Shown here piece by piece: positions 1 through 49,225 of a DNA stretch of 64,000 nucleotides. The stretch spans positions 173 through 64,172 of the forward strand of contig CAIOAT010000003.1 in the NCBI GenBank assembly GCA_903856085.1, written 5' to 3'. Position 1 is the stretch's first letter. Each line of letters begins with the position of its first letter. The notes beneath the pieces were generated by a model that searched no databases, was not told the origin of the DNA, and saw only the letters and a program-made list of their open reading frames with translations. Made by a program: the position numbers and the translations under genes. This DNA comes from Candidatus Omnitrophota bacterium (lineage in GTDB: Bacteria; Omnitrophota; Omnitrophia; Omnitrophales; Aquincolibacteriaceae).

Positions 1-3000
1 TCATCGCTCTTACGACAGCCTTCGTATTCCTCTGGTCCATGTGTATCACTCCCGTGATGGCTGAGACCATCAACCTTCAGGGGGGCAGTGTTGAAGTGAA
101 TGTCCAGGACAACACGACGAACTGGAACGTGACGGGGAATCCGGTGTGGAATATGCCTGAGTTTAATGTCGCGCAGGGGAGTATTTTTAACATTGCCGGT
201 CTCGGGGCGGGTTCCAGCCTGGCGCTTCTTGTAAACGGCGGTTCGGCGTCCAATATTTTCGGGACCATGAATTTATCCAATATCGCTTTTATTCTCCAGA
301 ACATTGCAGGGATCAATATTGGCTCAAGCGCCATGATTAATCTCTCGAATGCTTCTCTTATTGCTTCCACGTTACCGCTCAACTTGAGCATGACGGATTT
401 TCTCAAAGAGAATTACCAGTTCAGCGGTCAGGGCGGGTTCCTATCGAACGAAGGCCATATTCTCGGCGGCAAAGGAGATCTTGTCGCACTGATCGCCAAC
501 GCCATTGAGAACAAGGGAACGATCGAAGTGCCGATGGGCACCGTGGCCCTGGCTGCCGGGAAGACCGTGACGGTTGGTATTTCAGGGGATGGTCTGGTGT
601 CGATCGGTGTGGACGAAGCGACCGCCAATGCTTTGGGTCTTAAAGACCAGATCAAGAACACGGGGACAATCCAGGCCAACGGCGGTCACGTGATCCTTAA
701 CGCCAAGGCCGTGGATGGTCTTTTTGAAAAGGCGATCAATATTGCAAAAGGAAGCAATTCAGTCGCCGCGGTCATCGCCGATGACGGGAAGATTGAATTC
801 GTAGCCCAAGGCGATGTCACGAACACCGGAACTCTTCAGGCGAAACGCGGGAAAATCGAGATGGATGTGAAAGGTGATATCGAAACGATGGGAAATCTCG
901 AAGCTGCTTACTTCCGAGAAAAAGCCGCAGCTTTCCGCATCGGCGGCGATTATCACGTCGATCAATCGTTTCATGACAACCTCGATAATGCTCTTACGTA
1001 TGTTGCGAACGCGAATGTTCATGGCACGATCAATGACATCGCCAATATCATTGTCAATGCCGAAGTCACGCTGACGTTGGATGCCGATACGACGTTCAAT
1101 GCGGACAGTGACGCCAACGGTACCGGAGCATTCCTGATGGACGCCACTGCGACAATCTTGGGCAGTGGTTACAATCTCACCTTCACGGCGAGTGAAACCT
1201 CCACATTCGGAAAGATCAGTAACATTGGAAATTTGACACTGAATGCTCAAAAGGATGTGGCAACGTATCAGGTCCGAAATGCAGTGCAGATGAATGGGGA
1301 CCTGACCGTGAATGTTGGTGCGACCTTCACCGGCGGCTATGATGTCACTGTGAATGGTGGCGATGTGACAGGCGACGGAACGATCGACTTGAGCGGCGGA
1401 ACATTTATTTTAACTGGGACCGGAAATTTCGGAGGAAAAACAAATTGGTCTTTTGCTGCGCTTAGATTTGGTGATGGCACTACCGAAGGAATTACCAAAA
1501 AAAACGGCCCCAATAAAGTAACAATTTTGGATGGACTAGATATCAAAGAAAAACATGAGCTTCAAGCAGGAACAAGCACCTGGGACCTTTCCTGGGGAGG
1601 TGGGTATTTGACGGATGTGATCCAAATCACTGCCGGGACTAACCATGCTCTGGCCTTGCTCGCATCAGGGATCGTCAAGGCCTGGGGCAACAACGAGGCG
1701 AGTCAGCTTGGAGATGGAACGACTCAAAATCGTTCGTCACCTATTACAGTGCCGGGGCTTTCCGGCGTCAAAAGCGTTGCAGCGGGAGGTAATTCATCTT
1801 TTGCCATTAAGGCGAGCGATGGAAGCGTTTGGGCGTGGGGTTTTGGCAACTGGGGACAACTCGGAGACGGAACAGGCGCAGATCATTCAAGCCCCGTTCA
1901 AATACCGGGTCTCTCAGGCGTTGCCAGCATCTCGGCAAATCTTTACCACACGCTTGCCCTCATGGCCGATGGCACCGTGAAATCTTGGGGATATAACGGA
2001 AACGGGCAACTCGGGGATGGAACAAACGCCTTTATCCGTTATTCGCCTGTCACGGTTGTGGGTTTATCCGGAGTCACTGCCATTGCAGCAGGCTTCTTCC
2101 ACTCACTTGCCCTTTTGTCTAACGGGACGGTTAAAGCCTGGGGGGATAACACGTATGGCCAGCTCGGAAATGGGACCAATACGAGCTCATCAAGTCCCGT
2201 AACTGTAGATGGAATTTCCACCGCCACCCAAATCGCTGCGGGAGAATACCACTCTCTTGCTCTTTTGTCAGGTGGCACTGTGCAAGCCTGGGGCGCCAAC
2301 AATACAGGACAGCTCGGAGATGGAACTAATACAAACAGAACAACGCCGGTGACCGTGCTTGACCTTTCTGGAGTCACCCAAATCGCGGCCGGTTCAAATT
2401 TTAATATTGCGCGTCTATCGGACGGCACTCTAAAAAGTTGGGGGAGTAACTTTGATGGGCAACTCGGAGATGGTACGACCACGGCACGATCAACACCTGT
2501 CACGGTACCTGGAATCTCAGGAGTGATCGGAATTGCCACGGCCTCTCGCGGGGGAGCCTTTTCACTGGCGCTTTTACCTAATGGGACAGTCAAAGGATGG
2601 GGTATGAATAATTGGGGTCAAATCGGAAATAACAGTCCCGTTAGTTTTGTCACTTCACCGAAGACCTCAGTATCGGGTTTGGGCGGAATCCATTTGACGG
2701 ACATCTCTCAGATTGTGGCGGGGGATGGCCATGCCTTGGCTCTCAAAACCGATGGTTCGCGGGTTTACGCTTGGGGAGACGGAGGGTCGGGTCAATTGGG
2801 CTATGGTCTGACAGATACCGCATTGACAGCTGTCGAAGTGATGAATCCGGACGGGACAGGTCCGTTGACTGGGGTTAAAAAAATTGCGGCGGGATTTTAT
2901 CATTCTCTGGCACTTATGTTCGATGGCACCGTTGTGAGTTGGGGACGAAATGATCGAGGCCAACTCGGAGACGGGACAACATCTAGCCGCCTTTTGCCGG

Positions 3001-4835
3001 TCGCTGTCCTCGGCCTTACGGGAGTTCTCGATATAGCCGCTGGCGCTTGGCATTCTCTCGCTCTAGTTGATGATGGAACAGGGCACAAAACGGGGACTGT
3101 CTCAGCTTGGGGGATTTTTGACGGTACATCACCGGTTATCATAGGGGGACTTTCCAGTGTCACAAGCATTGCGGCCAGTTACATGCACTCGCTGGCCCTT
3201 TTATCCGACGGCACAGTCAAAGCTTGGGGTTATAACACATACGGGGAACTTGGAGACGGAACTACGATCTCTCGGTGGAGCCCCGTGACCGTATCGGGGC
3301 TTTCCAATGTTAAAAGCATTGCGGCCGGCATGGATCATTCCATGGCTATTTTGAACGACGGTACCGTAAAAACTTGGGGACATAATAATTACGGTCAACT
3401 CGGTGACGGTACCACCACGGACCGGTTAACGCCCGTGACTGTCACGGATCTTTCCGGCCTTTCCGTTAAAAGCATTGTGGGTGGAGTTGAATATACCTTA
3501 GCCTGCTTGGAAGATGGCACCGTTAAAAGTTGGGGAGGCAATTGGTACGGTCAATTGGGTGACGGAACGACCGCTACCCAAACCAGACCGGTCACAGACT
3601 CAGCGCTTTCGGGTGTGACGGCTCTCGCGGCCGGAAATGGTTACTCCTTTGGGGTCTCTTCTTCCGATGATGTTAAGGCTTGGGGATTCAACTACTACGG
3701 GGCTCTTGGTATTAATCGAACCTCATTTCAGGAAGTTACCCCCCAGTATGTCGTCACGCTGACGCGAGCCCCTTTTATTAGCGAGGGCACTTTCACAGCG
3801 CAGGATTCCACGTTTACTTATTCAGGGGGCTATGCCTTTGGCCGTGTTGTTACCACGGTGGTGGCCAATGTGGAATACCATGACCTCGTTTTGAAGTACA
3901 CTCTGAATAATTACGTTCTTCCGCTCGTGGACAAAACGTTATTAAACAATCCGTCCGAATCAGATTTTGATCCCTTAGTGACGGGGAAATTGACGTTTTT
4001 GGGTGAACATCAATCGGTGTCTGATATTGATGTAGCGGCTGCGAGGCAGGCGCTTGCGGATAAAGATGCATCAGCCCGAGCGTTTGAGGCGATGATGCAG
4101 GCACACATGGGGGATAGATCTTTGGCGCTTGATTTCTTTTCGCAATTTTTCAGTCCGGATCGGGCGATGAATTTCACGACGGATGTCAGAGTCCAGGAAG
4201 GCGCGGTGTATACGCTGGACGGTTTGAGCGAGATGTCACTTTTGACGCAGGGGGAATCCTTGCGCGTAGCTTTCAAGGAAAAGAAATCGGAATTGACCCG
4301 GATGGAACCAAAAGAACTGGAGACGAAGCCCCTTCAGCCGGTTTCCAACCCTGTGATTGTTACGGGAGATAACCCGTTAGAGCCGAGGGATCTGTTGTCC
4401 GGACAGTCCAAGGCGGCCACGCCTGTAGTGATGCGAGATGATGAAACCGCCGGGCGTTACGGGACATTGAAGAATCCCGGAAAAGACGTGTTTGTAAAAT
4501 GTGCGGGAGGGGAATGGCAGGCCGCGAAGGACGGCATGGTAATTATGCCGGGCGATGTAGTGAAGACCGCCTCAGCTGGTTCCGTGGAAGTGATGCTGGA
4601 TGGCGGTAAGGTCGGGCACGTGGAGGTTAAGGCTGGGAGTTTATTCCGTATCAACAAAGCTGAGACGAATCCCGCGACGGGGGAGAAGACAACGCTTTTG
4701 GAATTAGCCGTCGGGAAATTGATCGCCCATGTCGAAAAACTTCAGGGCAATTCCAAGTTCGAGGTTCGCACTCCGACCGCACTCACCGGCGTCCGTGGCA
4801 CTGTTTTCGAAGTGGTGGTTAAAGAAAAAGCCTAA
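1..4835 (+). CDS. Large secreted protein, 5'-truncated by window edge: TPS/filamentous-haemagglutinin N-terminal domain + ~20 RCC1 (β-propeller) repeats + C-terminal FecR-like domain
   Basis: The frame is open from nt 3 (…IALTTAFVFLWSMCITPVMA|ETIN), which looks like the end of a signal peptide with an AXA cleavage site. The true start is therefore upstream of the window. N-terminal motifs match the FHA/TPS β-helix domain (W..FNV..G.IFNI…LVNGGSASNIFG…NIGSSAMINLSNASLIASTL). A long run of GxN..GQLGDGT…SPV repeats is classical RCC1. The C-terminus (…GDVVKT…GSLFRIN…FEVRTPTALTGVRGTVFEV) is FecR-like. Confidence 0.75.
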   Translation, partial: IALTTAFVFLWSMCITPVMAETINLQGGSVEVNVQDNTTNWNVTGNPVWNMPEFNVAQGSIFNIAGLGAGSSLALLVNGGSASNIFGTMNLSNIAFILQNIAGINIGSSAMINLSNASLIASTLPLNLSMTDFLKENYQFSGQGGFLSNEGHILGGKGDLVALIANAIENKGTIEVPMGTVALAAGKTVTVGISGDGLVSIGVDEATANALGLKDQIKNTGTIQANGGHVILNAKAVDGLFEKAINIAKGSNSVAAVIADDGKIEFVAQGDVTNTGTLQAKRGKIEMDVKGDIETMGNLEAAYFREKAAAFRIGGDYHVDQSFHDNLDNALTYVANANVHGTINDIANIIVNAEVTLTLDADTTFNADSDANGTGAFLMDATATILGSGYNLTFTASETSTFGKISNIGNLTLNAQKDVATYQVRNAVQMNGDLTVNVGATFTGGYDVTVNGGDVTGDGTIDLSGGTFILTGTGNFGGKTNWSFAALRFGDGTTEGITKKNGPNKVTILDGLDIKEKHELQAGTSTWDLSWGGGYLTDVIQITAGTNHALALLASGIVKAWGNNEASQLGDGTTQNRSSPITVPGLSGVKSVAAGGNSSFAIKASDGSVWAWGFGNWGQLGDGTGADHSSPVQIPGLSGVASISANLYHTLALMADGTVKSWGYNGNGQLGDGTNAFIRYSPVTVVGLSGVTAIAAGFFHSLALLSNGTVKAWGDNTYGQLGNGTNTSSSSPVTVDGISTATQIAAGEYHSLALLSGGTVQAWGANNTGQLGDGTNTNRTTPVTVLDLSGVTQIAAGSNFNIARLSDGTLKSWGSNFDGQLGDGTTTARSTPVTVPGISGVIGIATASRGGAFSLALLPNGTVKGWGMNNWGQIGNNSPVSFVTSPKTSVSGLGGIHLTDISQIVAGDGHALALKTDGSRVYAWGDGGSGQLGYGLTDTALTAVEVMNPDGTGPLTGVKKIAAGFYHSLALMFDGTVVSWGRNDRGQLGDGTTSSRLLPVAVLGLTGVLDIAAGAWHSLALVDDGTGHKTGTVSAWGIFDGTSPVIIGGLSSVTSIAASYMHSLALLSDGTVKAWGYNTYGELGDGTTISRWSPVTVSGLSNVKSIAAGMDHSMAILNDGTVKTWGHNNYGQLGDGTTTDRLTPVTVTDLSGLSVKSIVGGVEYTLACLEDGTVKSWGGNWYGQLGDGTTATQTRPVTDSALSGVTALAAGNGYSFGVSSSDDVKAWGFNYYGALGINRTSFQEVTPQYVVTLTRAPFISEGTFTAQDSTFTYSGGYAFGRVVTTVVANVEYHDLVLKYTLNNYVLPLVDKTLLNNPSESDFDPLVTGKLTFLGEHQSVSDIDVAAARQALADKDASARAFEAMMQAHMGDRSLALDFFSQFFSPDRAMNFTTDVRVQEGAVYTLDGLSEMSLLTQGESLRVAFKEKKSELTRMEPKELETKPLQPVSNPVIVTGDNPLEPRDLLSGQSKAATPVVMRDDETAGRYGTLKNPGKDVFVKCAGGEWQAAKDGMVIMPGDVVKTASAGSVEVMLDGGKVGHVEVKAGSLFRINKAETNPATGEKTTLLELAVGKLIAHVEKLQGNSKFEVRTPTALTGVRGTVFEVVVKEKA

Positions 4836-4988
4836 AACCGGGTAACGGGCAACGTTAGGCGCCAAAGCCTTTTTGTTGTTTTGCGTTTCCCGATTACCGT
4901 GTCAAAGTTCTTAAGTCCCCATGGTTTTCCACCGATATTAAGAGTACACGGCCCTTGTCTTGGATTCTAATTTTTAGATGGAAGGGCT

Positions 4989-5028
4989 GCCCCAATTTCA
5001 TTTTTAATGAAATTGATAGGAATTGGGA
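4989..5028. repeat. Hairpin repeat, H-type copy 3 (GCCCCAAT-stem-loop-stem-ATTGGGA)
   Basis: gccccaatttcatttttaatgaaattgataggaattggga. Same flanks as the copies at 16664 and 34123; the inner stem differs with compensatory changes. Confidence 0.5.
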
Positions 5029-5524
5029 TTGAAGTTGAAGCTGAGGTGTGCTTTTAACCTCGAGGGTCGGAAGCTATGGTAACTTTCCGGTCAATTCTTT
5101 CTCAGTGGATATTTACGGTAGCGATCTTTTGCGTCAGTTTTACTTCCTTGGGGGCTGCTTTTGCTCCTCTTAGTCCCTCTTTCTCAGGGTCTCTCGATTC
5201 GATGCGTTTGAGTTTTTCCATGGAGTTGAGGATCGTTTCGGGTCCAGGGGAGACCCAGTCTCCTTCTCGCCGCGACTCGGTTTTAAGTCGCTTGGAAGAA
5301 CGGATCCTGACTCATCGCGCAATCTCTGTTTCCGCTTAAGATTCGCTGGAATTTTCCTCAAAAAAAGTCATAATGACTGCCCAAGCCCACGTTTCTTTTT
5401 TTAGAGGGCGACTTGGGCTGTTCCACTGCTCATCAATCTCAGCAAAGTTGAAATTCGGTCAGTCCAAACTATGATTTGGAAAAGAAACAAAAAGTTCGGG
5501 CTGTCATAGTTACCCTTTTTCAAA

Positions 5525-6868
5525 ATGAAAGAGAATAATAACGCTATGTCTTATCGATTTGTTTGCAATCACTGCGGAAAAAAATTTGAACTCGAGAGCC
5601 CCGAGGCTAAGGAGTGTCCTTCCTGTTTTTGGAGTTCGTCCGTTAAAAGGGAGGACGAGTTAGCTTCTGAGAAAAAGGGCTTTTCCCGTTCTTCCAAAGA
5701 GGTCGCCTCAAAGCCAGGCCATAAAGTTTTTTTTGGGAATATAAAATATCTCTTCCGCGCATTGCTCTTCATCGTCCTTCTCGCTGCGGCCGGATTTTTA
5801 GCTTATAAAGCTTACAAGCTAGTCACCTCGTCTTCTCCTCAAAGTTGGAAAACCTTTTTGATCAAGCCGCAAAGGGATGACAAACAAGCCGAGGCTGTGG
5901 CGGCGGATCCTTCGGCGTTGCTTTCGCCGCAGGAAAAAGAGATGCTCTCCCGTGAAGTGACGATCCCAGTGGATCGCGCGCCCGATCCTGGCGAGCAAGA
6001 GATCCTTGGCCGGTCCATTCCTTTTCAAACGGGATGGACCGAAAAATTGCCTTCCGCGGTGTGGACGCTTGAACAATATCAAAAAATGATCGCGGATCAG
6101 GAATCCTTCTATAAAATGCCTTTCGCGAGGAGCTATAAGAAAAAACTCGAGGAATTATTTAAGAAAAAATATCTCGTGGCTGCGGACGCGTTCGTGAAAG
6201 GGGATGTGCTGGCGGCCCGGAATTTCTGGGTGGAATCCTTGGCGTTCCCGCTCTATTCCACGGACCTGAAAAAGCATCGTGCGGTCGCGCTTACCATGCT
6301 CCGGCCTTTCATCAATGACACCCTTTCAAAAGTGAGCGCTATGAACCAAAGCCTCCTGGACAGGGGGAAGAAGTCTAGGGAACAAGCTTTAAGCGTAGAA
6401 TATCAGAAACTCATCGGGCTGATCGCCCGAAAGCAATGGCAGGAGGCTTTGACGGTGATCGTTCAAATGATCTCGGAGACCGAGCTGCTGCGCAAGAACG
6501 CGATGCCTCAAGAAGCGCCGCCGCCTTATCCGGCTGCTTTCGGAACGATCGACTCAGATCTTCAGCGGCCGCTGATGGATTTGATGTCGCCGAGTCCTTC
6601 CTCAACGGCCGATCTTCAGCCTCTACAGCAGGACTTGGTCGAGAAGAAAGAAGTGATTGAGACTTTCACGGAGGCCTATTTGAAGAGTGCTAGGGAGGCT
6701 TATCAGTCGGCTCTGGAACTGATCCGTGATAAGAAGTGGCCGGAAGCGGCCCAGGCATTGGGATCCATTCAGGGACCGCAAGCGCTGCAGCAGGACGCGG
6801 CAGGGAAGATCGCCATTCTTGGAAAAATAACAGGGCGAACGCTTGATTCGTCCGGGAAAACCAGCTAA
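5525..6868 (+). CDS. Hypothetical membrane protein: N-terminal CxxC…CxxC zinc ribbon, one TM helix, ~350 aa helical (TPR-like) C-terminal domain
   Basis: Zinc-ribbon motif CNHCGKKFELESPEAKECPSCFW, then a hydrophobic segment LFRALLFIVLLAAAGFLAYKAY. Good coding periodicity. Architecture resembles zinc-finger anti-sigma or sensor proteins, but no homology is recognised. Confidence 0.6.
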   Translation: MKENNNAMSYRFVCNHCGKKFELESPEAKECPSCFWSSSVKREDELASEKKGFSRSSKEVASKPGHKVFFGNIKYLFRALLFIVLLAAAGFLAYKAYKLVTSSSPQSWKTFLIKPQRDDKQAEAVAADPSALLSPQEKEMLSREVTIPVDRAPDPGEQEILGRSIPFQTGWTEKLPSAVWTLEQYQKMIADQESFYKMPFARSYKKKLEELFKKKYLVAADAFVKGDVLAARNFWVESLAFPLYSTDLKKHRAVALTMLRPFINDTLSKVSAMNQSLLDRGKKSREQALSVEYQKLIGLIARKQWQEALTVIVQMISETELLRKNAMPQEAPPPYPAAFGTIDSDLQRPLMDLMSPSPSSTADLQPLQQDLVEKKEVIETFTEAYLKSAREAYQSALELIRDKKWPEAAQALGSIQGPQALQQDAAGKIAILGKITGRTLDSSGKTS

Positions 6869-6886
6869 GCTTCTGAAGAAGAGTGT

Positions 6887-7288
6887 ATGAGCCAGGTCGC
6901 GCTAGGTTTAGGGGCTATAAAAACGCGGCGAAGTGTTTTTGCTCTTGTGGTGGATATGGTTGCGGCAACTCAGATTGTTAAATGTGCGGCCGGACTTCAT
7001 ATCGGAGTAAGGAATTTTGATAGCGCGGAGAAACTGGTCGCGCAGGCCGCGATCGAGCGGCCGTTTCTCGTGATCCTCGACTTTGAAAAACGCGAGGCTG
7101 AGGCGTTTCGGGTGCTTAACGAATTGCATAAAAATGCCGATTTAAAGAATACCCCTGCGGTGGGATTTGTGACGCAGGCCAATGTGATGGTAAAACCGGA
7201 GGCCGAGAAGGCGGGTTGCTTCCGGGTCTATATGAAAACAGAGTTTGGCAGGGAACTGCCGGACCTGATCGCGAGGTATGCGGTATGA
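6887..7288 (+). CDS. Atypical single-domain CheY-like receiver protein
   Basis: REC-like pattern: ALVVDM, phosphoacceptor-position D in LVILDF, T in GFVT, K in YMKTEF. Its stop overlaps the next ORF in an ATGA. Confidence 0.5.
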   Translation: MSQVALGLGAIKTRRSVFALVVDMVAATQIVKCAAGLHIGVRNFDSAEKLVAQAAIERPFLVILDFEKREAEAFRVLNELHKNADLKNTPAVGFVTQANVMVKPEAEKAGCFRVYMKTEFGRELPDLIARYAV

Positions 7289-7584
7289 TCCTGCATGTGG
7301 GACATGATCTTCCTGTGAAAGAAGTGAGAACTCTGGACTGCGAGTCTCCGGGTTTCACATCGGAAGAGACGCGCATTATCAAGAGCCAGATCCGCAAGAA
7401 TATGGCGGTGATCGATCTTCACATCCGTCGGATCGATCTTTTTGTGAACCATGAACGTCACGCGTCACGCGCGGGCCTGATCGCGCAATTGCACGAACGT
7501 CTTCTTGTTTTGATGGAAGAGAACGATACTTTTCGAAAAGTCTTGTGGAAACAATACCAAAACCTGGGAGAGAATCTAACATGA
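7285..7584 (+). CDS. Hypothetical protein (99 aa), translationally coupled between the REC-like gene and glgC
   Basis: ATG at residue 24 of track ORF 7216..7584, overlapping the upstream stop (ATGA). Its own stop overlaps the glgC ATG. No recognisable domain. Confidence 0.4.
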   Translation: MILHVGHDLPVKEVRTLDCESPGFTSEETRIIKSQIRKNMAVIDLHIRRIDLFVNHERHASRAGLIAQLHERLLVLMEENDTFRKVLWKQYQNLGENLT

Positions 7585-8843
7585 GCCGACGCGTTACGAC
7601 CCTGATCCTTGGCGGTGGACAGGGGAAGAGACTCTTCCCGCTTACGAGTTATCGTTCCAAGCCCGCTGTTCCGATCGGCGGCAAATACCGTCTGGTCGAT
7701 ATTCCGATCTCCAATGCCATCAATTCGGCTCTCCGGCGTATCTTTGTTCTAACGCAGTTTAATTCGGCTTCGCTCCACCGCCATATCCACCGGACTTATC
7801 CGTATGAGGCGTTCACAAAAACGAGCGTGGAACTTCTCGCGGCCGAGCAGACGACTGAGAACACGGACTGGTTCCAGGGGACCGCCGACGCGGTCCGGAA
7901 ATGCATGCCGCATTATCGCGCGGACGCCACGGATGTTTTCCTGATTCTTTCCGGGGATCATCTTTACCGGATGAACTATCGTGAGATCTTGGGGTTCCAT
8001 GAGATGCAACGAGCAGATGTGACAGTTGCAACGGTTCCGGTCCCGGAGCGGCTCGTCAAGGGGTTCGGTGTCATGAAGCTCCAAAGAGATGGTCAGATCA
8101 CCGATTTTCTTGAAAAACCCACCAAGAATGATGATGTGGAATCCTACGCTATGCCCAAACCCCTTTGCGATCTTCATCGTGTGAAGGCCAAGGGCCCTAT
8201 GTATCTCGCATCGATGGGAATCTATGTTTTCAACCGCGATGTGCTTTTGGACGTGCTCTCCGGGAGCGAAAAAGATTTTGGTAGAGAGATTATCCCTAAG
8301 GCAATCAAGAACTACAAGGTCTTTGGCCACGTCTTCACGGGGTATTGGCGCGACATCGGGACGATCGGGAGTTTTTATGAGGCGAGTCTCGAACTCACGA
8401 ACGCGAACCCGCCGTTCAGTTTTCTTTCTCCGGAAGGGCGCATCTTTACCCGCCCCAGGTTCCTGCCGCCTTCCAAGATCCTCGGGACAGAACTGGATCA
8501 TGTCGTGATGTCCGAAGGTTGCATCTTGACGGGCGCTAAGATCCATCAATCGGTTGTGGGGCTGCGTTCGGTCGTAGGGTCAGGGACCGTGGTCCGCAAA
8601 AGTGTTCTGATGGGAAATGACTACTATGAGTGGCCGGACCCGTCTCAAGATTACCGGATCGGGGTTGGCAAGAACTGCGTGATCGAGAATTGCATTATCG
8701 ATAAAAATGTGTCGATCGGAGATGGCGTGAGCATCACGAACGCCAAAGCGATCGATGAGAAGGACGGCGATCATTATTACATCCGCGATGGGATCGTGAT
8801 CATTCCGAAGGGTGTTCACATTCCCTCTGGCACGAAGATCTAG
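7581..8843 (+). CDS. glgC: Glucose-1-phosphate adenylyltransferase
   Basis: MSRRVTTLILGGGQGKRLFPLTSYRSKPAVPIGGKYRLVDIPISNAINS… is the canonical GlgC N-terminus, with a C-terminal left-handed β-helix region. The track ORF starts at 7545; the internal ATG at 7581 fits GlgC family N-termini better. Confidence 0.9.
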   Translation: MSRRVTTLILGGGQGKRLFPLTSYRSKPAVPIGGKYRLVDIPISNAINSALRRIFVLTQFNSASLHRHIHRTYPYEAFTKTSVELLAAEQTTENTDWFQGTADAVRKCMPHYRADATDVFLILSGDHLYRMNYREILGFHEMQRADVTVATVPVPERLVKGFGVMKLQRDGQITDFLEKPTKNDDVESYAMPKPLCDLHRVKAKGPMYLASMGIYVFNRDVLLDVLSGSEKDFGREIIPKAIKNYKVFGHVFTGYWRDIGTIGSFYEASLELTNANPPFSFLSPEGRIFTRPRFLPPSKILGTELDHVVMSEGCILTGAKIHQSVVGLRSVVGSGTVVRKSVLMGNDYYEWPDPSQDYRIGVGKNCVIENCIIDKNVSIGDGVSITNAKAIDEKDGDHYYIRDGIVIIPKGVHIPSGTKI

Positions 8844-37125: not shown

Positions 37126-38295
37126 ATGGTAGGTAAAAAAAAGAAAAAAAACGAGCTTCGTCCCGAGCGCGGGACTAGGCAGAAACATCTTCTGAAGAAA
37201 GCCGGGCGCGGACGCCTTAAGCGTTCCCGCCCTGTTTCTCACGTCCCCGAGTCTTCGCAGCCCAAGAAACATCCCAAGGCAAAATCTCTGGCTCCTCTCA
37301 AAGATACCGAGGCTCTTCTGCTCCGTGAAATAGAGCTTCAGAAAGAGGCGGAGAATATCCTCAAGGTTGAAGGGGGGCTTGACCGTCGCAAGAGTGAACG
37401 TGAGGATGATGAGCCGGATGCCCATGCGGATGACGCAATAGATCAAACTCTTGACCGTACGACCATGAGGATCTATCTCGATCAGATCGAGCATATCCCG
37501 CTCTTGACTCCTGAGGAAGAGATCTCTCTAGGAGAAAAAGTCCAGGCGGGCGGCGCGCGGGGTGAGGAGGCGCGGCTACGCATGATCCGCTCGAATCTCC
37601 GTTTGGTGATATTGCTCGCGAAGCGCTATGCCCACATGGGTCTTGCTTTTTCGGATCTCGTAGAAGAAGGCAATATCGGTCTCATGCGTGCGGTGGAAAA
37701 ATTCGATCCGAAAAGGGGCTACCGTTTTTCGACGTATGCTTCCTGGTGGATCAAACAGGGCATGATGCGCTCCCTTTCCAATCAGGGAAAAACGATCCGC
37801 ATTCCCGTTTATATGTACGGCATTATTTCCAAGTGGCGCCGGGTCCGGGATGCTTTAATGCAACGTCTCAGCCGGATGCCGACGCGGCGGGAAATCGCAA
37901 AAGTCCTTGAGATCCCGACTGCGAAAGTCAAAGAGATCGAAAGTATTGTGAACCGTCCGAGTTCGCTCAATACGCCGCTCAGTCTCGACGGTACGGCCGA
38001 ACTGATCGATATGCTCGAGGATGGCAAAGAACGCAATCCGGACTCGCAGGTCGGTGAAATGCTGAAAAGCGACCGGATTCGCAAGCTGTTGGGGGTTTTG
38101 GATGACCGGGAACGTGAGGTTTTGGAGCGCCGGTTCGGGCTGGTCCATCATGACCCGCATACGCTGGCCGAGGTCGCTCAACATTTCAATGTCACCCGGG
38201 AGCGTATCCGGCAGATCGAAGGCATCGTTCTCAAGAAAGTCCGCGCTCAGCTCGTTTTGGAAGGCGACCAGTTCGAGAATTATCTTCCGCACTAA
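37126..38295 (+). CDS. RNA polymerase sigma-70 family factor (RpoD-like, regions 1.2-4)
   Basis: Region 2 (…LVILLAKRYAHMGLAFSDLVEEGNIGLMRAVEKFDP.RGYRFSTYASWWIKQ…), region 3 and region 4 (…LTLAEVAQHFNVTRERIRQIE…). Confidence 0.85.
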   Translation: MVGKKKKKNELRPERGTRQKHLLKKAGRGRLKRSRPVSHVPESSQPKKHPKAKSLAPLKDTEALLLREIELQKEAENILKVEGGLDRRKSEREDDEPDAHADDAIDQTLDRTTMRIYLDQIEHIPLLTPEEEISLGEKVQAGGARGEEARLRMIRSNLRLVILLAKRYAHMGLAFSDLVEEGNIGLMRAVEKFDPKRGYRFSTYASWWIKQGMMRSLSNQGKTIRIPVYMYGIISKWRRVRDALMQRLSRMPTRREIAKVLEIPTAKVKEIESIVNRPSSLNTPLSLDGTAELIDMLEDGKERNPDSQVGEMLKSDRIRKLLGVLDDREREVLERRFGLVHHDPHTLAEVAQHFNVTRERIRQIEGIVLKKVRAQLVLEGDQFENYLPH

Positions 38296-38895: not shown

Positions 38896-38969
38896 GCCCC
38901 CATAGCTCAATTGGATAGAGCATCGCCTTCCTAAGGCGAGGGTTGCATGTTCGATTCATGCTGGGGGCA
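38896..38969 (+). tRNA. tRNA-Arg (anticodon CCT)
   Basis: GCCCCCA acceptor stem with its TGGGGGC complement, D-arm GCTC…GAGC, anticodon stem-loop TCGCC-TTCCTAA-GGCGA (CCT), T-arm GCATG-TTCGATT-CATGC, discriminator A. No encoded CCA. Confidence 0.85.
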
Positions 38970-39081
38970 CTAAATCCGAATAAGTTAGTGTGGCGCCGTC
39001 GAATCCTAATGAAAGCCTCGTGCGGTGACCGTAGTGATTTTTTTCACGAAATATTATTCCAAAGAGCTCAAAAAGGCGGGA

Positions 39082-39612
39082 ATGGAAATGCGAAAATTTG
39101 AAAAAGTATCCTTTTTTTGGATCTTGGCCGCTCTTTTTTTGTTTCCGGTAGGAACTGCCATCGGTCAGGATGTGGCAGAGCCTTCGAGGAAAGCCGAAGA
39201 ACCGGCGCCGAAATCTGATCTTGATAAATTGAAGACGGAATGGGAAGCCGTTCGCGAGCAACAGATTCAGATGCTCCTCGAAAAAGAAAGGCAACTGGAA
39301 AAGCTCAAGGAAGAGATCTTTGCCAAGATGAAGGCCTTGAATGTTCCGGCAACGCCTCAATCCGGCAAGTCTCAACCTGTATCTGCGAGTGATCCCAGTC
39401 TCGTTCCTCAGGGTGAAACGGTTCCTGACAGCAGTTCCGAACTTGAGGTCCAAAAATCGTCTTTCCAGGCTGAACGTCAAAAGTTTTTTGCGGAAATGAG
39501 TCGCCAAAAAGAAAGTCTTCGCCAGCTTCAATCCTCTCTCGATCAAAAGGCCAAACAGCTTGCTGCGGAACGGGAACGTTTTGAACAGGAAAAAAAGACG
39601 GCAGGCCGTTAG
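39082..39612 (+). CDS. Hypothetical secreted coiled-coil protein (Gln/Glu/Lys-rich)
   Basis: Signal peptide MEMRKFEKVSFFWILAALFLFPVGTAIG, then a long charged helical region. Start at residue 20 of the track ORF after an AAGGCGGG RBS. Confidence 0.5.
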   Translation: MEMRKFEKVSFFWILAALFLFPVGTAIGQDVAEPSRKAEEPAPKSDLDKLKTEWEAVREQQIQMLLEKERQLEKLKEEIFAKMKALNVPATPQSGKSQPVSASDPSLVPQGETVPDSSSELEVQKSSFQAERQKFFAEMSRQKESLRQLQSSLDQKAKQLAAERERFEQEKKTAGR

Positions 39613-39624
39613 CCTTCCTCGCTC

Positions 39625-40167
39625 ATGCCGGATAAAACTTTCCTTAGAAAAGCACTCCTGGGAAAAATGAAAAATGTCCCGCTTCTTTCGCGGCACATGA
39701 AAAGCCGTCGGATCCTCCGGAAATTGTCCCAAGAACCCGTTTTCCGAAAAGCGGAACACGTTGCGTTTTATTATGGGATCGCCCCCGAGGTGGAGACGAA
39801 GCCTTACCTTAAAAAGATCTTGAAGGATAAAAGGATCTATCTTCCGAGGGTCGGTCCGAGGAAGTCCCTGACATTGCGCCGTGTTCGTTCGCTTTCCCGG
39901 GACCTGAAAAAAGGCGCTTACAACATCATGGAGCCTAAGGTGTTTTGTGAGAAACGGGCGGCGAACCAAATGGATCTCATCATTGTCCCCGGCGTGGCTT
40001 TTGACAAGAGAGGCGGGCGTCTGGGGCGGGGCGGTGGTTACTACGACCGGCTTCTCCGGAAGGCCGGGAAAGTCATCAAGGTCGGGTTGTGCTTCCGGGA
40101 ACAGCTTGTAAAAAAAGTTCCGATGCAAGCGCACGATATGAGAGTGGACAAAGTCATTACGGACTAG
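39625..40167 (+). CDS. 5-formyltetrahydrofolate cyclo-ligase
   Basis: …DLIIVPGVAFDKRGGRLGRGGGYYDRLL… hallmark of the MTHFS family. Confidence 0.8.
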   Translation: MPDKTFLRKALLGKMKNVPLLSRHMKSRRILRKLSQEPVFRKAEHVAFYYGIAPEVETKPYLKKILKDKRIYLPRVGPRKSLTLRRVRSLSRDLKKGAYNIMEPKVFCEKRAANQMDLIIVPGVAFDKRGGRLGRGGGYYDRLLRKAGKVIKVGLCFREQLVKKVPMQAHDMRVDKVITD

Positions 40168-46105: not shown

Positions 46106-46125
46106 ACGATAACCGATTATTGCCT

Positions 46126-47406
46126 ATGTCCGACATCCGAGTTCGTTTCGCGCCATCCCCGACAGGATACCTCCACATTGGAGGTGTCCGTACTGCACTT
46201 TTTAATTACCTTTATGCGCGTCAGCAGGGCGGAAAATTCCTGCTGCGCATTGAAGACACCGATCGTCAGCGCTCGACACCCGGATTTGAACAGGAAATCC
46301 TGGAATCGCTTCGCTGGCTCGGGCTTGAGTGGGATGAAGAACTGGTCCATCAAAGTAAGCGGCTTGACCGGTACCGTGAAATCGCTCAAGAGCTCGTCGC
46401 CAAAGGTCTTGCCTATGAATTTGAGGGAGCCATTAAGTTCAAGATCCCGCAGACCGTAGTCAAAGTCTATGACATCGTTCGCGGGGAAGTGACCTACGAC
46501 TCCAAAGAGTTCGATGACCTCGTGATCATGAAGTCTGACGGATATCCTGTCTTTCATCTGGCGGTGATCGTGGATGACCATGACATGGGGATCACGCACG
46601 TGGTGCGCGGGGAGGACCATCTGACCAATACGCCCCGGCATATCCTTCTTCAGCAGGCGCTCGGATGGAAATCGCCCAAGTACGCACATCTCCCGCTCAT
46701 TTTTGGTTCCGATGGTACTCCGCTTTCCAAGCGTCATGGCGCGGTTGCGGTGACAGAATATCGTAACAAGGGTTTTCTTCCGCAGGGGCTCATCAACTAT
46801 CTGGCGCTTCTTGGCTGGAATCCCGGGACGCCGCAGGAGATCTTTTCGCTTCCGGAACTTGTGAAGCAATTTTCTCTGAAGCGCGTGATCAAATCGAACG
46901 CGCAGTTCAATCCCGAAAAACTTCTCTGGGTGAATGGCCAGCATATTCGCGCGATCCCGGGAGAGGATTATGAAAAACAGATGACGGAATTTTGGAAGGA
47001 CAAGTTGGAGCCGATGCCGGAAGAAAAATGGCGGAAGCTGATCGCGCTTTACCGGCCACGTATCCAGACCTATGGTGAGTTGAAGGAGCAGGCGGTTTAT
47101 TGCTTTGCCAGCCCCGATTATAAAGACGCCGCCTTGATGGCCGAGATCAAAGGGAATGCCGTGACGGTGAAGTTGCTGGGTGAATTGCGCGATGTTCTCA
47201 GCGACCTTGGAGATTTTGAAGATGTGCAGATCCTGGATCAAAAGACAAAACAAGTGGCTGAGGCCGCGGGCCTGAAGCCCAAGGATATCATCCATCCCCT
47301 TCGCTTTGTCTTGACGGGCGGCACTGCGAGCCCCGGTATTTTTGAGCTCATGAGCCTTCTTGGAAAAGAGACCTGCTTAGAACGTCTCGTAAAATTCCTC
47401 ATTTAA
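46126..47406 (+). CDS. gltX: Glutamate--tRNA ligase
   Basis: RFAPSPTGYLHIGGVRTALFN… (HIGH) and a KMSKS-like LSKR region. ATG at residue 3 of the track ORF. Confidence 0.9.
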   Translation: MSDIRVRFAPSPTGYLHIGGVRTALFNYLYARQQGGKFLLRIEDTDRQRSTPGFEQEILESLRWLGLEWDEELVHQSKRLDRYREIAQELVAKGLAYEFEGAIKFKIPQTVVKVYDIVRGEVTYDSKEFDDLVIMKSDGYPVFHLAVIVDDHDMGITHVVRGEDHLTNTPRHILLQQALGWKSPKYAHLPLIFGSDGTPLSKRHGAVAVTEYRNKGFLPQGLINYLALLGWNPGTPQEIFSLPELVKQFSLKRVIKSNAQFNPEKLLWVNGQHIRAIPGEDYEKQMTEFWKDKLEPMPEEKWRKLIALYRPRIQTYGELKEQAVYCFASPDYKDAALMAEIKGNAVTVKLLGELRDVLSDLGDFEDVQILDQKTKQVAEAAGLKPKDIIHPLRFVLTGGTASPGIFELMSLLGKETCLERLVKFLI

Positions 47407-47473: not shown

Positions 47474-49159
47474 ATGGAAATGCCCACGACACCTTCTAAT
47501 TTCATACGCGATATTATTAATGCCGACATCGCGAGCGGCAAGAACAAGGGTCGCGTGCACACACGCTTTCCGCCCGAACCCAACGGTTACCTCCATATCG
47601 GTCACGCCAAGGCTATCTGCATCAGTTTCGGGATCGCCCGCGACTACCAAGGGCTCTGCAATCTCCGTTTTGACGATACCAATCCCGAAAAAGAGGAAGT
47701 CGAATACGTGGATTCCATCCGCGAGGATGTTCGCTGGCTCGGTTTTGATTGGGGTGAACGCGAGTATTATGCTTCGGATTATTTTGGTCAACTCTATGAA
47801 CACGCGCTCACGCTTATCAAAAATGGAAAAGCCTATGTCTGTGACCTAAGCCCGGACGAGCAGCGCCAGTATCGCGGGACTTTCAACGAGCCAGGCAGGA
47901 ACAGCCCTTTTCGTGATCGATCTCCGGAAGAAAACCTGAATCTTTTTGAAAGGATGAAAGCCGGGGAATTCCCAGATGGCGCGCGCGTTTTAAGAGCGAA
48001 GATCGATATGGCGTCTCCCAACATTACCATGCGCGATCCCACGATCTACCGGATCAAAAAGGCGTCGCATCATCGCACCGGCGACCAATGGTGCATCTAT
48101 CCGATGTATGACTTCACGCATTGTATCTCGGACTCCATCGAAGGGATCACGCATTCGATCTGCACGCTCGAGTTTGAGAATAACCGTCCGCTTTATGACT
48201 GGGTTCTCGACCAGCTTGGCATTCACCATCCTCAACAGATAGAGTTCGCCCGTCTCAACATCACTTACACACTCCTGAGCAAGCGAATTCTGTTGAAGCT
48301 TGTTCAACAGAAGATCGTGTCCGGCTGGAATGATCCGCGTATGCCCACGATTTCGGGATTCCGTCGGCGTGGCTATACGCCATCCGCTATCCGCGCGTTT
48401 TGTGACAAGATCGGCGTTGCGAAGTTCAACAGCACGATCGATATGGTATTGCTCGAGAATTCCATCAGGGAAGAACTCAATAAAACAGCGCCTCGCGTGA
48501 TGGCAGTCCTGGATCCTCTTAAGGTTGTTATCACGAATTATCCCGAGGGCAAGACCGAAGAAATGGAGGCCGTGAATAATCCCGAGGATCCGGCGGCCGG
48601 GACGCGCATACTGCCGTTCTCAAAAGAACTTTATATCGAGCGGGAAGATTTCCGTGAGGATGCGCCCAAGAAATTCTTCCGGCTTGTGCCGGGCGGGGAA
48701 GTACGACTGCGTTATGGGTATTTCATCAAATGCGAAAAGGTCGTCAAGGACGCAGCCGGCCGGATCACAGAACTTCACTGTACGTACGATCCCGAAACCC
48801 GCGGAGGGAATAATCCTCCGGACGGCCGGAAGGTGAAGGGTACGATCCATTGGGTTTCAGCTCACCATGCACTGAAGGCCGAAGTCCGGCTCTATGATCA
48901 TTTGTTTGCCGCAAAAGATCCAGGTGATGTTCCGGAAGGCCAGGATATTTTTGTGAATCTGAATCCTAAATCTCTGGAGACGGTTTCCGAGGCGCTTCTT
49001 GAGCCTAGCTTGAAGGATGCGAAACCCGGCGAGCGGTTCCAGTTCGAGCGGCTTGGCTATTTCTTCGCAGATCCCATCGATTCCAAGTCCGGTCACCCCG
49101 TTTTCAATCGCACCGTGACTTTACGCGATACGTGGGAGAAGATCGAGAAAAAGGGGTAA
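47474..49159 (+). CDS. glnS: Glutamine--tRNA ligase
   Basis: …[23 protein letters not shown]… (HIGH), plus a C-terminal anticodon-binding β-barrel region typical of GlnRS. Confidence 0.9.
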
Positions 49160-49225
49160 TTACGGCGCTTGCGCCTAGGGCTCAAGTACCGCTTTGTGGA
49201 AGCTTTGGGAATGCTATCGACGAAG

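What the first reader, a model, noticed from the sequence alone, without database searches (positions are those of the whole stretch)
1..4835. Giant exoprotein combining a TPS/FHA secretion domain, an RCC1 β-propeller array and a C-terminal FecR domain
N-terminal TPS domains normally head filamentous adhesins or toxins exported by a TpsB partner. Here the passenger is about 20 RCC1 repeats, at least two β-propellers, followed by about 350 aa of unknown sequence and a FecR-like domain. FecR domains are typical of periplasmic anti-sigma or sensor proteins. This combination is unusual and could be a surface-displayed binding or sensing protein. The gene runs off the 5' edge of the window; only the signal-peptide end (…FVFLWSMCITPVMA|ET) is visible. 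The TpsB transporter gene should therefore lie just upstream of the window.
Basis: partly seen in the sequence, partly recalled or inferred. Interest (0 to 1): 0.55.

Follow-up and report, generated by a model that had tools for sequence, protein, structure and literature searches.

The report
Omnitrophota TPS adhesin with FecR tail
A 1,664-residue surface protein of an uncultured Omnitrophota bacterium joins a divergent two-partner-secretion head, two RCC1 propellers and a FecR-like tail; the design recurs across the phylum, has no transporter gene next to it, and the tail probably stays in the periplasm and tethers the protein.

Summary
One ORF (window 3-4835, + strand) lacks only its first 54 codons. 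The full protein is 1,664 aa. It has an extended signal peptide and a divergent but genuine TPS domain: Pfam PF05860 fails, but phmmer hits the EtpA TPS structure at 8.6e-11 and the AF2 model's 15 best PDB matches are all TPS domains. Next come a beta-helix stalk, 14 RCC1 blades (two 7-bladed propellers, not about 20 repeats), a mostly disordered linker and a C-terminal FecR domain.

The predicted TpsB just upstream is not supported. The syntenic ortholog has a GGDEF-EAL response regulator there, and about 20 paralog loci and the 64-kb window contain no TpsB. TpsB genes are nevertheless common in Omnitrophota.

The gene belongs to a multi-copy Omnitrophota family (at least 5-8 copies per genome, 1,400-5,900 aa). 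The TPS head and FecR tail are conserved and the passenger varies (RCC1 or Glug). In three of four canonical relatives, TpsA, TpsB and a separate FecR gene are neighbours, so this protein looks like a fusion of functional partners.

The tail weakly resembles the LapA/MpIBP retention module. My best reading, an inference, is a periplasmic C-terminal tether or plug. I classify it as a new variant of a known kind.

The parts
1..4835 (+). Gene for the TPS-RCC1-FecR exoprotein. The window holds codons 55-1664 plus the stop. The first 54 codons (start MEKENLTTQ...) lie 160 nt upstream of the window.
   Evidence: Open frame 3. Full gene is L001:13-5007. In-frame TGA upstream in L033. Identical 1,664-aa product on other contigs.
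3..62 (+). C-terminal part of an extended signal peptide: h-region IIALTTAFVFLWSMCIT and c-region PVMA, with predicted cleavage A|ETI. The ~50-aa N-terminal extension lies outside the window.
   Evidence: The extension motif M(K/E)xENLxTQ and the PVMA|ETI junction are conserved in paralogs.
63..902 (+). Divergent TPS (two-partner secretion) domain, window aa 21-300. The canonical NPNG motif reads NIAG, with the N and G retained.
   Evidence: phmmer against EtpA 8cpk at 8.6e-11 and HMW1 2odl at 1e-4. AF2 pLDDT above 90 over most of it. Foldseek top 15 matches are all TPS domains. PF05860 gives no hit and TIGR01901 is sub-threshold. N80 and G83 are invariant across 26 homologs.
903..1610 (+). 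Beta-helix stalk extending the TPS domain (window aa ~301-536). Model confidence falls after aa ~490.
   Evidence: The AF2 model is all-beta and continuous with the TPS helix. Homologous to the same region of P0009/L003, L019 and P0085.
1611..2717 (+). RCC1 propeller 1, blades 1-7 (WG motifs at window aa 561, 612, 662, 713, 763, 813, 866).
   Evidence: Pfam WD40_RLD, RCC1 and RCC1_2 hits at E 1e-114 to 1e-161. Blade count.
2718..3788 (+). RCC1 propeller 2, blades 8-14 (WG motifs at window aa 924, 980, 1036 [degenerate], 1075, 1125, 1177, 1227).
   Evidence: There is no DNA-level tandem repeat, so the repeats are old and diverged.
3789..4448 (+). Linker region (window aa 1263-1482), mostly low-confidence or disordered. 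It contains one helix (aa ~1344-1380), a small beta unit (aa ~1391-1424, 'TTDVRVQEGAVY...') and a Pro-rich disordered stretch (aa ~1429-1480). From aa 1377 onward it belongs to the conserved C-terminal module.
   Evidence: AF2 C-terminal model. The HMM of the conserved module aligns to window aa 1377-1609. The module is shared by 28 Omnitrophota proteins at more than 180 bits.
4449..4832 (+). C-terminal FecR-like beta domain (window aa 1483-1610). Proposed to be a periplasmic retention or coupling module.
   Evidence: PF04773 scores 32.3 bits against GA 24. AF2 pLDDT 91-98. Best PDB fold match is 5ix9, the MpIBP 'cell surface anchoring domain' (prob 1.0, TM 0.69, rmsd 1.9 A, 63 columns). Weak NCBIfam retention_LapA hit. 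hhalign P=0.002. Homologous to the 155-aa FecR gene next to the TpsB in L025 (3.8e-41).

Best explanation
This is a type Vb (two-partner secretion) exoprotein of an uncultured Omnitrophota bacterium. It belongs to a multi-copy family of 'orphan' TpsA genes.

Proposed route: a long, extended signal peptide sends it through Sec. The divergent N-terminal TPS domain docks on a TpsB transporter encoded elsewhere in the genome. The chain is then threaded out N-terminus first. Outside the cell it folds into a beta-helix stalk carrying two seven-bladed RCC1 propellers, which act as the ligand-binding head, probably for attachment to prey, host or a surface.

The last ~130 residues form a FecR-like beta domain that folds in the periplasm and cannot pass the pore. 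The ~50-residue disordered, Pro-rich segment before it would span the barrel. The protein would therefore stay tethered across the outer membrane by a periplasmic plug. [quoted passage not shown]

Shown here: the architecture, the TPS and FecR homologies, the family, the absence of an adjacent TpsB, and the gene-neighbour link between TPS, TpsB and FecR.

Inferred: TpsB dependence, the periplasmic location and plug role of the tail, and the adhesive role of the propellers.
For: TPS head. It matches solved TPS domains by sequence and by predicted fold. Progressively more distant homologs carry PF05860.

Extended signal peptide. It is conserved among paralogs, as is typical of type V substrates.

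Family. There are at least 5 copies in MAG CAYZYT01 and at least 8 in CAZSFZ01. Eleven 50%-identity clusters of 1,409-5,861 aa combine an N-terminal TPS domain with the C-terminal FecR module. Passengers are RCC1 or Glug. A 47%-identical collinear ortholog sits in the same synteny.

Functional link between TPS and FecR. In the nearest canonical (PF05860) loci, a separate FecR gene sits beside the TpsA and TpsB genes:
- L025/L026 (Omnitrophica): FecR 155 aa | TpsB | ... | TPS | TPS.
- L027: TpsB | TPS | LysM-FecR | CHASE2 cyclase.
- L031: TPS | TpsB | FecR.
 The tail is homologous to those proteins (3.8e-41, 1.8e-12, 3.9e-13). LysM implies a periplasmic, peptidoglycan-bound location for the stand-alone partner.

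Retention-module resemblance. Three weak, independent pointers agree: Foldseek best hit 5ix9, NCBIfam NF033682 at E=0.0067 and hhalign at P=0.002.

Geometry. The tail sits at the end that leaves the cell last and follows a disordered linker.

Precedents. The FhaB prodomain is retained in the periplasm (PMC4542190). The LapA retention module anchors that adhesin in its outer-membrane channel (PMC10990149).

Trans-acting TpsB. A ~700-aa POTRA_2+ShlB family is widespread, and every hit that carries a name is from Omnitrophota.
Against: - No TpsB could be tied to this genome. None lies in the window, in the syntenic ortholog or in about 20 paralog loci.
- The NPNG motif is degenerate (NIAG), and the curated TPS models do not reach threshold.
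- The retention-module similarity is weak. Foldseek E is 1.3e-2, the NCBIfam score is 16.6 bits against a cutoff of 50, hhalign probability is 14%, and a profile search of PDB sequences found nothing significant. It covers only the first ~45-63 residues of the domain.
- No LapG-type di-alanine site is conserved before the domain, and no LapG/LapD-like gene was seen in the window.
- Not all family members end in FecR: L018, a complete 2,793-aa protein, lacks it.
- FecR-domain proteins of Leptospira (Lsa33, LipL45) are described as surface or peripheral proteins, so an extracellular location for the tail is possible.
- Topology and secretion route are untested.
Confidence: 0.5

Rival explanations
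1. The whole protein, FecR tail included, is exported and either released or displayed. The FecR-like domain is then an extracellular binding or oligomerisation module that works together with the RCC1 propellers.
For: The tail's best NCBIfam matches are Leptospira Lsa33 (E=2.4e-12) and LipL45, which are named as surface adhesin and lipoprotein. A second large class of proteins carries two N-terminal FecR domains followed by 800-3,600 aa of unknown sequence, so the domain is used in varied positions. Some family members lack the tail.
Against: Stand-alone homologs sit next to TpsB or are fused to LysM, which binds peptidoglycan and so implies a periplasmic location. The tail is always at the extreme C-terminus, after a disordered linker. 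That placement is what a last-to-exit plug predicts. A binding head would not need it.
Confidence: 0.2
2. The periplasmic FecR tail is mainly a signalling device rather than a plug. Ligand binding or tension on the external RCC1 head would be relayed through the chain in the TpsB pore to the tail. The tail would then contact a periplasmic or inner-membrane sensor, as LysM-FecR proteins do with CHASE2 kinases and cyclases, and alter c-di-GMP or cNMP levels.
For: L027 has TpsB | TPS | LysM-FecR | CHASE2-guanylate cyclase | GAF | cNMP-binding genes. RR-FecR-CHASE2 operons occur in Burkholderiales (PMC5192318). A response-regulator-PAS-GGDEF-EAL gene lies immediately upstream of the syntenic ortholog and of paralogs L009 and L014. 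Classical FecR relays a signal from an outer-membrane protein.
Against: No CHASE2 protein is encoded in the window or in the Omnitrophota loci examined. The GGDEF-EAL neighbour is cytoplasmic, with no membrane sensor domain detected. The GGDEF-EAL neighbour is confined to one syntenic position (L034, L009 and L014); the other paralog loci have unrelated upstream genes.
Confidence: 0.15
3. The protein does not depend on TpsB. The TPS-like beta-helix has been kept only as a structural stalk, and export uses another route, for example the type II/IV-like systems reported next to other Omnitrophota giant genes.
For: No TpsB is adjacent in any of more than 20 loci. The NPNG motif reads NIAG, and the curated TPS models fail. 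West-Roberts et al. report T2SS-like loci upstream of Omnitrophota giant genes (bioRxiv 10.1101/2023.11.21.568195).
Against: The TPS region is the most conserved part of the family, at 67-79% identity with long invariant runs. That level of conservation argues for a recognition function. It sits directly after the signal peptide, as in all TpsA proteins. TpsB genes are widespread in the phylum. No T2SS genes lie near this gene or its paralogs.
Confidence: 0.12

Closest known systems
FhaB/FHA of Bordetella (TpsA) with FhaC (TpsB)
   Same: It has an N-terminal TPS domain after an extended signal peptide, a beta-helix stalk and a distal functional domain. [quoted passage not shown]
   Different: No sequence similarity exists outside the TPS domain. 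The tail here is a compact FecR-like domain of ~130 aa, whereas the FhaB prodomain is ~1,200 aa. The passenger head is RCC1 propellers. No adjacent TpsB is present. NPNG reads NIAG.
EtpA (ETEC) and HMW1 (H. influenzae) TPS adhesins
   Same: These are the best sequence and fold matches for the N-terminal 300-500 aa. They are secreted beta-helical adhesins.
   Different: Both are encoded in operons with their TpsB (and a glycosyltransferase). They have no RCC1 or FecR modules, and they carry the canonical NPNG motif.
LapA / MpIBP RTX adhesins (type 1 secretion) with an N-terminal retention module
   Same: These are giant surface adhesins held in an outer-membrane channel by a small beta domain at the end that leaves last (PMC10990149). 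The tail's best PDB fold match is the MpIBP anchoring domain 5ix9.
   Different: The secretion system differs (T1SS, C-terminus first) and the polarity is opposite. The similarity is weak and partial. No LapG cleavage site and no LapG/LapD genes were found here.
FecR/PupR-type anti-sigma regulators of cell-surface signalling
   Same: They share the PF04773 domain, which in those proteins is periplasmic and contacts an outer-membrane protein.
   Different: This protein has no cytoplasmic anti-sigma domain and no membrane anchor before the domain. It has no C-terminal STN-binding subdomain. No ECF sigma or TonB-dependent transducer gene is nearby.
LysM-FecR (COG4254) plus CHASE2 sensor operons
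   Same: The stand-alone FecR proteins there are homologous to the tail. In L027 such a pair directly follows tpsB-tpsA. The operon is described in PMC5192318.
   Different: In those operons FecR is a separate periplasmic protein paired with a CHASE2 sensor. Here it is fused to the TpsA C-terminus and no CHASE2 gene is nearby.
Omnitrophota giant proteins (West-Roberts et al. 2023 preprint)
   Same: They come from the same phylum and are very long, with multi-domain surface-attachment themes and c-di-GMP genes nearby.
   Different: Those giants (30,000-85,000 aa) carry SecA-like, peptidase and dockerin modules and lie beside T2SS-like loci. A term search of that paper found no mention of hemagglutinin, two-partner secretion, TpsB or FecR, and RCC1 only for Clostridia giants. 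The 2026 Omnitrophota preprint likewise contains none of these terms.

Membership tests
TpsA / TPS domain (PF05860, TIGR01901) | Domain sits at the N-terminus directly after a Sec signal peptide, often an extended one | tested here: met
   Signal peptide ...PVMA|ETI is followed at once by the domain. A ~50-aa N-terminal extension is conserved in paralogs.
TpsA / TPS domain (PF05860, TIGR01901) | Scores above the curated HMM thresholds | tested here: not met
   PF05860 gives no hit even when the N-terminal 526 aa are scanned alone at E<=10. TIGR01901 scores 18.3 bits against a cutoff of 29.1.
TpsA / TPS domain (PF05860, TIGR01901) | Sequence homology to experimentally defined TPS domains | tested here: met
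   phmmer against PDB: EtpA 8cpk at E=8.6e-11 over aa 33-292, and HMW1 2odl at 1e-4. Homolog search links it to PF05860 proteins.
TpsA / TPS domain (PF05860, TIGR01901) | Right-handed beta-helix TPS fold | tested here: met
   AF2 pLDDT 84 and pTM 0.85. The 15 best Foldseek PDB matches are HMW1, EtpA, HxuA, FHA and HpmA TPS domains.
TpsA / TPS domain (PF05860, TIGR01901) | Conserved NPNG(I) motif | tested here: not met
   The motif reads N-I-A-G-I (ILQNIAGINIG), invariant among the Omnitrophota paralogs apart from one QNLAG. Only the first N and the G are kept.
TpsA / TPS domain (PF05860, TIGR01901) | Cognate TpsB (POTRA + ShlB barrel) gene in the same locus | tested here: not met
   No TpsB in the window, in the syntenic ortholog L034, or in about 20 paralog loci. 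Canonical relatives all have one adjacent. A TpsB family is present in the phylum.
TpsA / TPS domain (PF05860, TIGR01901) | Secretion depends on TpsB | not testable with these tools
   Needs genetics or heterologous reconstitution.
RCC1-like beta-propeller | Seven RCC1 blades per propeller, scoring above Pfam thresholds | tested here: met
   PF00415 412.6 bits, PF13540 369.2 bits, PF25390 537 bits. 14 blades were counted. Structure of this part was not modelled.
FecR-type anti-sigma factor / cell-surface signalling regulator | FecR domain PF04773 above the gathering score | tested here: met
   32.3 bits against 24, at aa 1518-1605.
FecR-type anti-sigma factor / cell-surface signalling regulator | N-terminal cytoplasmic anti-sigma domain, then a membrane anchor, then the periplasmic FecR domain; partner ECF sigma and TonB-dependent transducer genes nearby | tested here: not met
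   The domain is at the extreme C-terminus of a secreted 1,664-aa protein. The only sigma factor in the window, at 37126-38295, has regions 1.2 to 4 and so is not ECF-type. No TonB-dependent receptor gene was found.
LapA/MpIBP retention module (NF033682) | Scores above the NCBIfam cutoff | tested here: not met
   16.6 bits against a cutoff of 50, E=0.0067, aa 1495-1542.
LapA/MpIBP retention module (NF033682) | Fold similarity to the solved retention/anchoring domain | tested here: inconclusive
   The best PDB match of the C-terminal model is 5ix9 (E=1.3e-2, prob 1.0, TM 0.69 normalised by the target, rmsd 1.9 A, 63 columns, 25% identity). hhalign gives P=0.002 but only 14% probability. The PDB sequence-profile search was negative.
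LapA/MpIBP retention module (NF033682) | Adjacent di-alanine LapG site, plus LapG/LapD and T1SS genes | tested here: not met
   'KAAT' before the domain is not conserved in homologs. No such genes lie in the window.

The most novel reading that the evidence does not exclude
FecR-like domains are the dedicated periplasmic partners of a widespread subclass of two-partner secretion systems. In most bacteria they would act as separate small or LysM-linked proteins beside TpsA and TpsB. In Omnitrophota they are fused to the C-terminus of the TpsA, where they would act as a plug that converts a secreted protein into a stably anchored surface adhesin. That anchoring might be releasable or able to signal. 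This would be a type Vb counterpart of the Lap retention system, built with the opposite polarity from a related beta domain.
Probability: 0.3. Interest if true: 0.75.

Novelty: new variant of a known kind. Interest (0 to 1): 0.55.

Why it matters
How TpsA proteins are held at the cell surface, rather than released, is understood only for FhaB and CdiA. Each of those uses its own idiosyncratic periplasmic segment. A small, modular, recognisable C-terminal domain that does this job would be a general and portable solution. The same domain also occurs as a separate gene next to TpsA/TpsB pairs in other phyla. If the reading is right, it would also give a function to the many unexplained non-anti-sigma FecR-domain proteins.

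For Omnitrophota, which are ultra-small bacteria suspected of host- or prey-dependent lifestyles, the family is a set of 5-8 or more large surface proteins per genome. They share a constant export head and tail and swap their binding passengers (RCC1 or Glug). That pattern is what a variable attachment repertoire would look like. The idea can be tested directly with heterologous secretion assays.

Tried and rejected
- Pfam and NCBIfam alone would have rejected the TPS call. This was overruled by the PDB sequence match and the fold match.
- Direct recovery of the upstream DNA failed. Both metagenome contigs holding the gene end 12-15 nt before the start codon. Synteny with L034 was used instead.
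- I searched for a conserved neighbour of the paralogs by all-vs-all BLAST of flanking ORFs. Nothing is shared beyond local synteny groups. The upstream genes are unrelated housekeeping or regulatory genes.
- A profile search of the FecR tail against PDB sequences gave only MtxA at E=0.18.
- Literature searches for FecR together with CHASE2 and hemagglutinin, with the phrase 'retention module', and for 'FecR domain' with POTRA returned nothing. The FecR + two-partner secretion and FecR + ShlB searches returned only papers that appeared unrelated from their titles and abstracts (the former included the P. aeruginosa VreI/VreR work).
- I tried to widen the TPS-FecR neighbourhood statistics with plasmid records. 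The FecR query found RR-FecR-CHASE2 operons without TPS. The TPS query found enteric EtpA-like adhesins and an uninformative Azospirillum locus. That collection therefore added no support.
- Horizontal acquisition was considered and rejected. The GC content of the gene (0.51) equals that of the rest of the window, and the locus is syntenic in a 47%-identical relative.
- A recent repeat expansion of RCC1 was considered and rejected. There are no DNA tandem repeats, and blades are only 10-69% identical to one another.
Full report
**What is in the sequence**

Frame 3 of the + strand is open from window base 3 to a stop at 4833-4835. A neighbouring-gene look-up recovered the same locus on JGI contig Ga0114951_10002600 (L001; window position = L001 position minus 172). 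There the gene is called at 13-5007, giving 1,664 aa.

A second contig, Ga0209083_1001819 (L033), begins three bases earlier with an in-frame TGA. The ORF is therefore closed upstream and the start is MEKENLTTQ.... The identical 1,664-aa product is also on record from contigs of up to about 224 kb. The window thus lacks only the first 54 codons.

Those codons are a ~50-residue N-terminal extension. Its motif, M(K/E)xENLxTQ, is conserved in paralogs. A classical signal peptide follows, ending PVMA|ETI. This is an extended signal peptide, as is common in type V substrates.

**Domains**

- **RCC1.** Pfam gives overwhelming RCC1 signals. Counting the WG...GQLG motif gives 14 blades, i.e. two seven-bladed propellers, rather than about 20 repeats. 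There is no DNA-level repeat.
- **FecR.** PF04773 scores 32.3 bits against a gathering score of 24, at window aa 1518-1605.
- **TPS head.** The curated TPS models fail. PF05860 gives no hit and TIGR01901 scores 18.3 bits against 29.1. However, phmmer against PDB chains aligns aa 33-292 to the EtpA secretion domain (E=8.6e-11) and to HMW1 (1e-4).
- **TPS fold.** An AF2 model of aa 21-545 (pLDDT 84, pTM 0.85) is a continuous beta-helix. Its 15 best PDB matches are all TPS domains: HMW1, EtpA, HxuA, FHA and HpmA.
- **TPS motif.** The canonical NPNG reads NIAG. The N and G are invariant across 26 homologs. That probably explains why the HMMs miss it.

The TPS call is therefore right, but for a divergent subfamily.

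**The C-terminal region**

AF2 on aa 1216-1610 is confident only for the last ~128 residues (pLDDT 91-98), for one helix and for a small beta unit. About 50 Pro-rich residues just before the final domain are predicted to be disordered.

**The family**

- The N-terminal region finds Candidatus Omnitrophota proteins at 58-79% identity. More distant hits carry PF05860.
- A scan of species-representative genomes found 21 loci. At least 5 are in one MAG (CAYZYT01) and at least 8 in another (CAZSFZ01).
- The encoded proteins run from about 1,000 to more than 3,800 aa.
- The C-terminal ~230 aa is a module shared by dozens of Omnitrophota proteins.
- A profile search of 1.8 billion representatives found 261 proteins at E<=1e-30. 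Among the hits of at least 800 aa that carry the module at the C-terminus, eleven clusters (1,409-5,861 aa) also start with the TPS domain.
- Their passengers are Glug repeats or RCC1 propellers.
- Two other clusters (P0076, P0085) share the full TPS-RCC1-FecR design. P0085 is 47% identical and collinear with this protein.
- Not every member has the tail. L018, a complete 2,793-aa protein, does not.

**The TpsB prediction**

- The syntenic ortholog locus L034 carries the same downstream genes as the window: four small unknown ORFs, GlgC-like, LptF/G, a phosphoribosyltransferase, S21, HisRS, AspRS and PhoH. Upstream it has a response-regulator-PAS-GGDEF-EAL gene and then a 324-aa gene on the other strand.
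- The same upstream pair precedes paralogs L009 and L014.
- phmmer with two TpsB seeds, which detect each other across phyla at 1e-18, finds no TpsB within the up to 10 kb of sequence held upstream of any paralog, in L034, or in the window.
- Every window ORF of at least 447 aa, and most smaller ones, is a housekeeping gene.
- By contrast, all four canonical PF05860 relatives examined have a TpsB next to them.
- TpsB itself is not missing from the phylum. The Omnitrophica TpsB of L025 has 290 homolog clusters at E<=1e-10. The top 120 are 43-72% identical and about 700 aa long. Every one that carries a name is from Omnitrophota.

The most economical reading is a set of orphan TpsA genes served in trans by a TpsB encoded elsewhere. 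I could not verify this for the source genome.

**The link between TPS and FecR**

The nearest canonical loci look like this:

| Locus | Gene order |
|---|---|
| L025/L026 (Omnitrophica) | FecR (155 aa), divergent from TpsB, then two TPS genes and a Glug protein |
| L027 | TpsB, TPS, LysM-FecR, CHASE2-cyclase |
| L031 | TPS, TpsB, then a FecR ORF cut by the contig end |

An HMM of the tail module hits these stand-alone proteins at 3.8e-41, 1.8e-12 and 3.9e-13. Small ~150-170-aa FecR proteins of this type are numerous. Stand-alone 246- and 423-aa versions exist in Omnitrophota.

The TPS-FecR protein therefore looks like a gene fusion of partners that are separate neighbours elsewhere. The LysM fusion in L027, and the known LysM-FecR/CHASE2 operons (PMC5192318), place the stand-alone partner in the periplasm.

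**How it probably works**

The best PDB fold match of the C-terminal model is 5ix9, the 'cell surface anchoring domain' of the Marinomonas ice-binding adhesin (prob 1.0, TM 0.69, rmsd 1.9 A over 63 columns, 25% identity, E=1.3e-2). NCBIfam independently gives a weak hit to the LapA retention-module model. A profile-sequence comparison with 5ix9 residues 14-73 gives P=0.002. These three signals are individually weak, but they agree.

In LapA-type adhesins, secretion is C-terminus first. A small N-terminal beta domain cannot pass the outer-membrane channel and so anchors the adhesin (PMC10990149). Two-partner secretion runs N-terminus first, so the equivalent plug would have to sit at the C-terminus, after a spacer able to span the barrel. 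That is the arrangement seen here.

FhaB sets the precedent that a TpsA C-terminal region stays in the periplasm and governs the fate of the surface part (PMC4542190).

I therefore propose the following sequence of events:

1. Sec export.
2. TPS-TpsB docking.
3. Extrusion and folding of the stalk and the two propellers.
4. Arrest by the periplasmic FecR-like tail.

The TPS and FecR homologies and the architecture are shown. The secretion route, the periplasmic location of the tail and the adhesive role of the propellers are inferred. The adjacent GGDEF-EAL regulator at this syntenic position hints at c-di-GMP control, but this is speculative.

**Rivals**

- The tail may be extracellular. Leptospira FecR-domain proteins are the best NCBIfam matches.
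- The tail may act mainly as a signalling coupler to a sensor, as in the CHASE2 context of L027.
- The protein may use another export route. The motif is degenerate, no TpsB lies nearby, and T2SS-like loci occur near other Omnitrophota giants.

Each is weighed in the rival section of this report.

**Novelty**

Neither of the two Omnitrophota giant-protein papers contains the terms hemagglutinin, two-partner or FecR. Searches combining FecR with two-partner secretion, ShlB, POTRA, CHASE2 plus hemagglutinin, or 'retention module' found no paper describing such a link.

The components are all known kinds. What appears undescribed is the fusion, the orphan multi-copy organisation and the implied role of FecR domains in type Vb secretion. 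I rate it a new variant of a known kind, of moderate interest, with a testable and more interesting reading at about 30% probability.

Noticed in passing
L001:1-12 and L033:1-24 (immediately upstream of window position 1 minus 160 nt): Two independent metagenome assemblies (contigs of 20,195 and 22,521 nt) both end within 3 nt of each other, 12-15 nt upstream of the gene's start codon. This suggests a repeat or a strain-variable junction there. Longer contigs (224-281 kb) carrying the same protein exist but could not be fetched.
   Followed up: partly
L034:1395-3560; L009:7428-9581; L014:1695-3848: A response-regulator-PAS-GGDEF-EAL gene (717-721 aa) lies directly upstream, on the same strand, of the TPS giant at this syntenic position in three genomes. 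This may reflect c-di-GMP control of the adhesin.
   Followed up: partly
window 7545-8843 (GlgC-like); L004:7292-8980, L008:7665-9353, L005:6996-9488, L021:7186-9708, L013:295-2787 (GH57); L012:6414-7910 (GlgA): Glycogen-metabolism genes recur next to different paralogs of the TPS family, as if the giant genes were scattered through a former glycogen gene cluster. This may be coincidental.
   Followed up: no
window 5076-7584: Four ORFs with no Pfam family are syntenic with L034 downstream of the TPS gene. They are an 87-aa ORF (84 aa in L034); a 447-aa protein with an N-terminal zinc ribbon, one transmembrane helix and a helical periplasmic part; a 133-aa receiver-like protein; and a ~99-aa protein. 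Whether they are functionally linked to the adhesin is unknown.
   Followed up: partly
proteins P0092, P0103, P0130, P0164, P0194 and about 35 more: A second large protein class has a signal peptide, two N-terminal FecR domains (aa ~25-135 and ~210-345), and then 800-3,600 aa with no Pfam match. Their taxonomy and secretion route were not examined.
   Followed up: partly
L019 (JAKQQT010000433.1, 1,992 nt): A 2-kb contig binned as Armatimonadota carries a 65%-identical TPS plus RCC1 homolog of this Omnitrophota family. It is probably a mis-binned contig.
   Followed up: no
L009:3-6068 and L009:18027-20873; contig of P0006: Family members occur in tandem. L009 has partial giants on both sides of the 2,755-aa copy. 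P0006 lies 245 nt downstream of a protein of more than 5,027 aa that ends in a FecR domain.
   Followed up: no
window 38956-40134 (- strand) and tRNA-Arg at 38896-38970: A 392-aa ORF with no Pfam match overlaps the 3' end of tRNA-Arg(CCT) by 15 nt on the opposite strand. It may be spurious or mis-started.
   Followed up: no
window 46120-47406 and 47474-49159: Two class I Glu/Gln-type tRNA synthetase genes lie side by side. One is 428 aa (catalytic domain plus Anticodon_2) and the other is a 561-aa GlnRS-type. tRNA-Gln(CTG) lies just downstream at 49225-49296 on the opposite strand.
   Followed up: no
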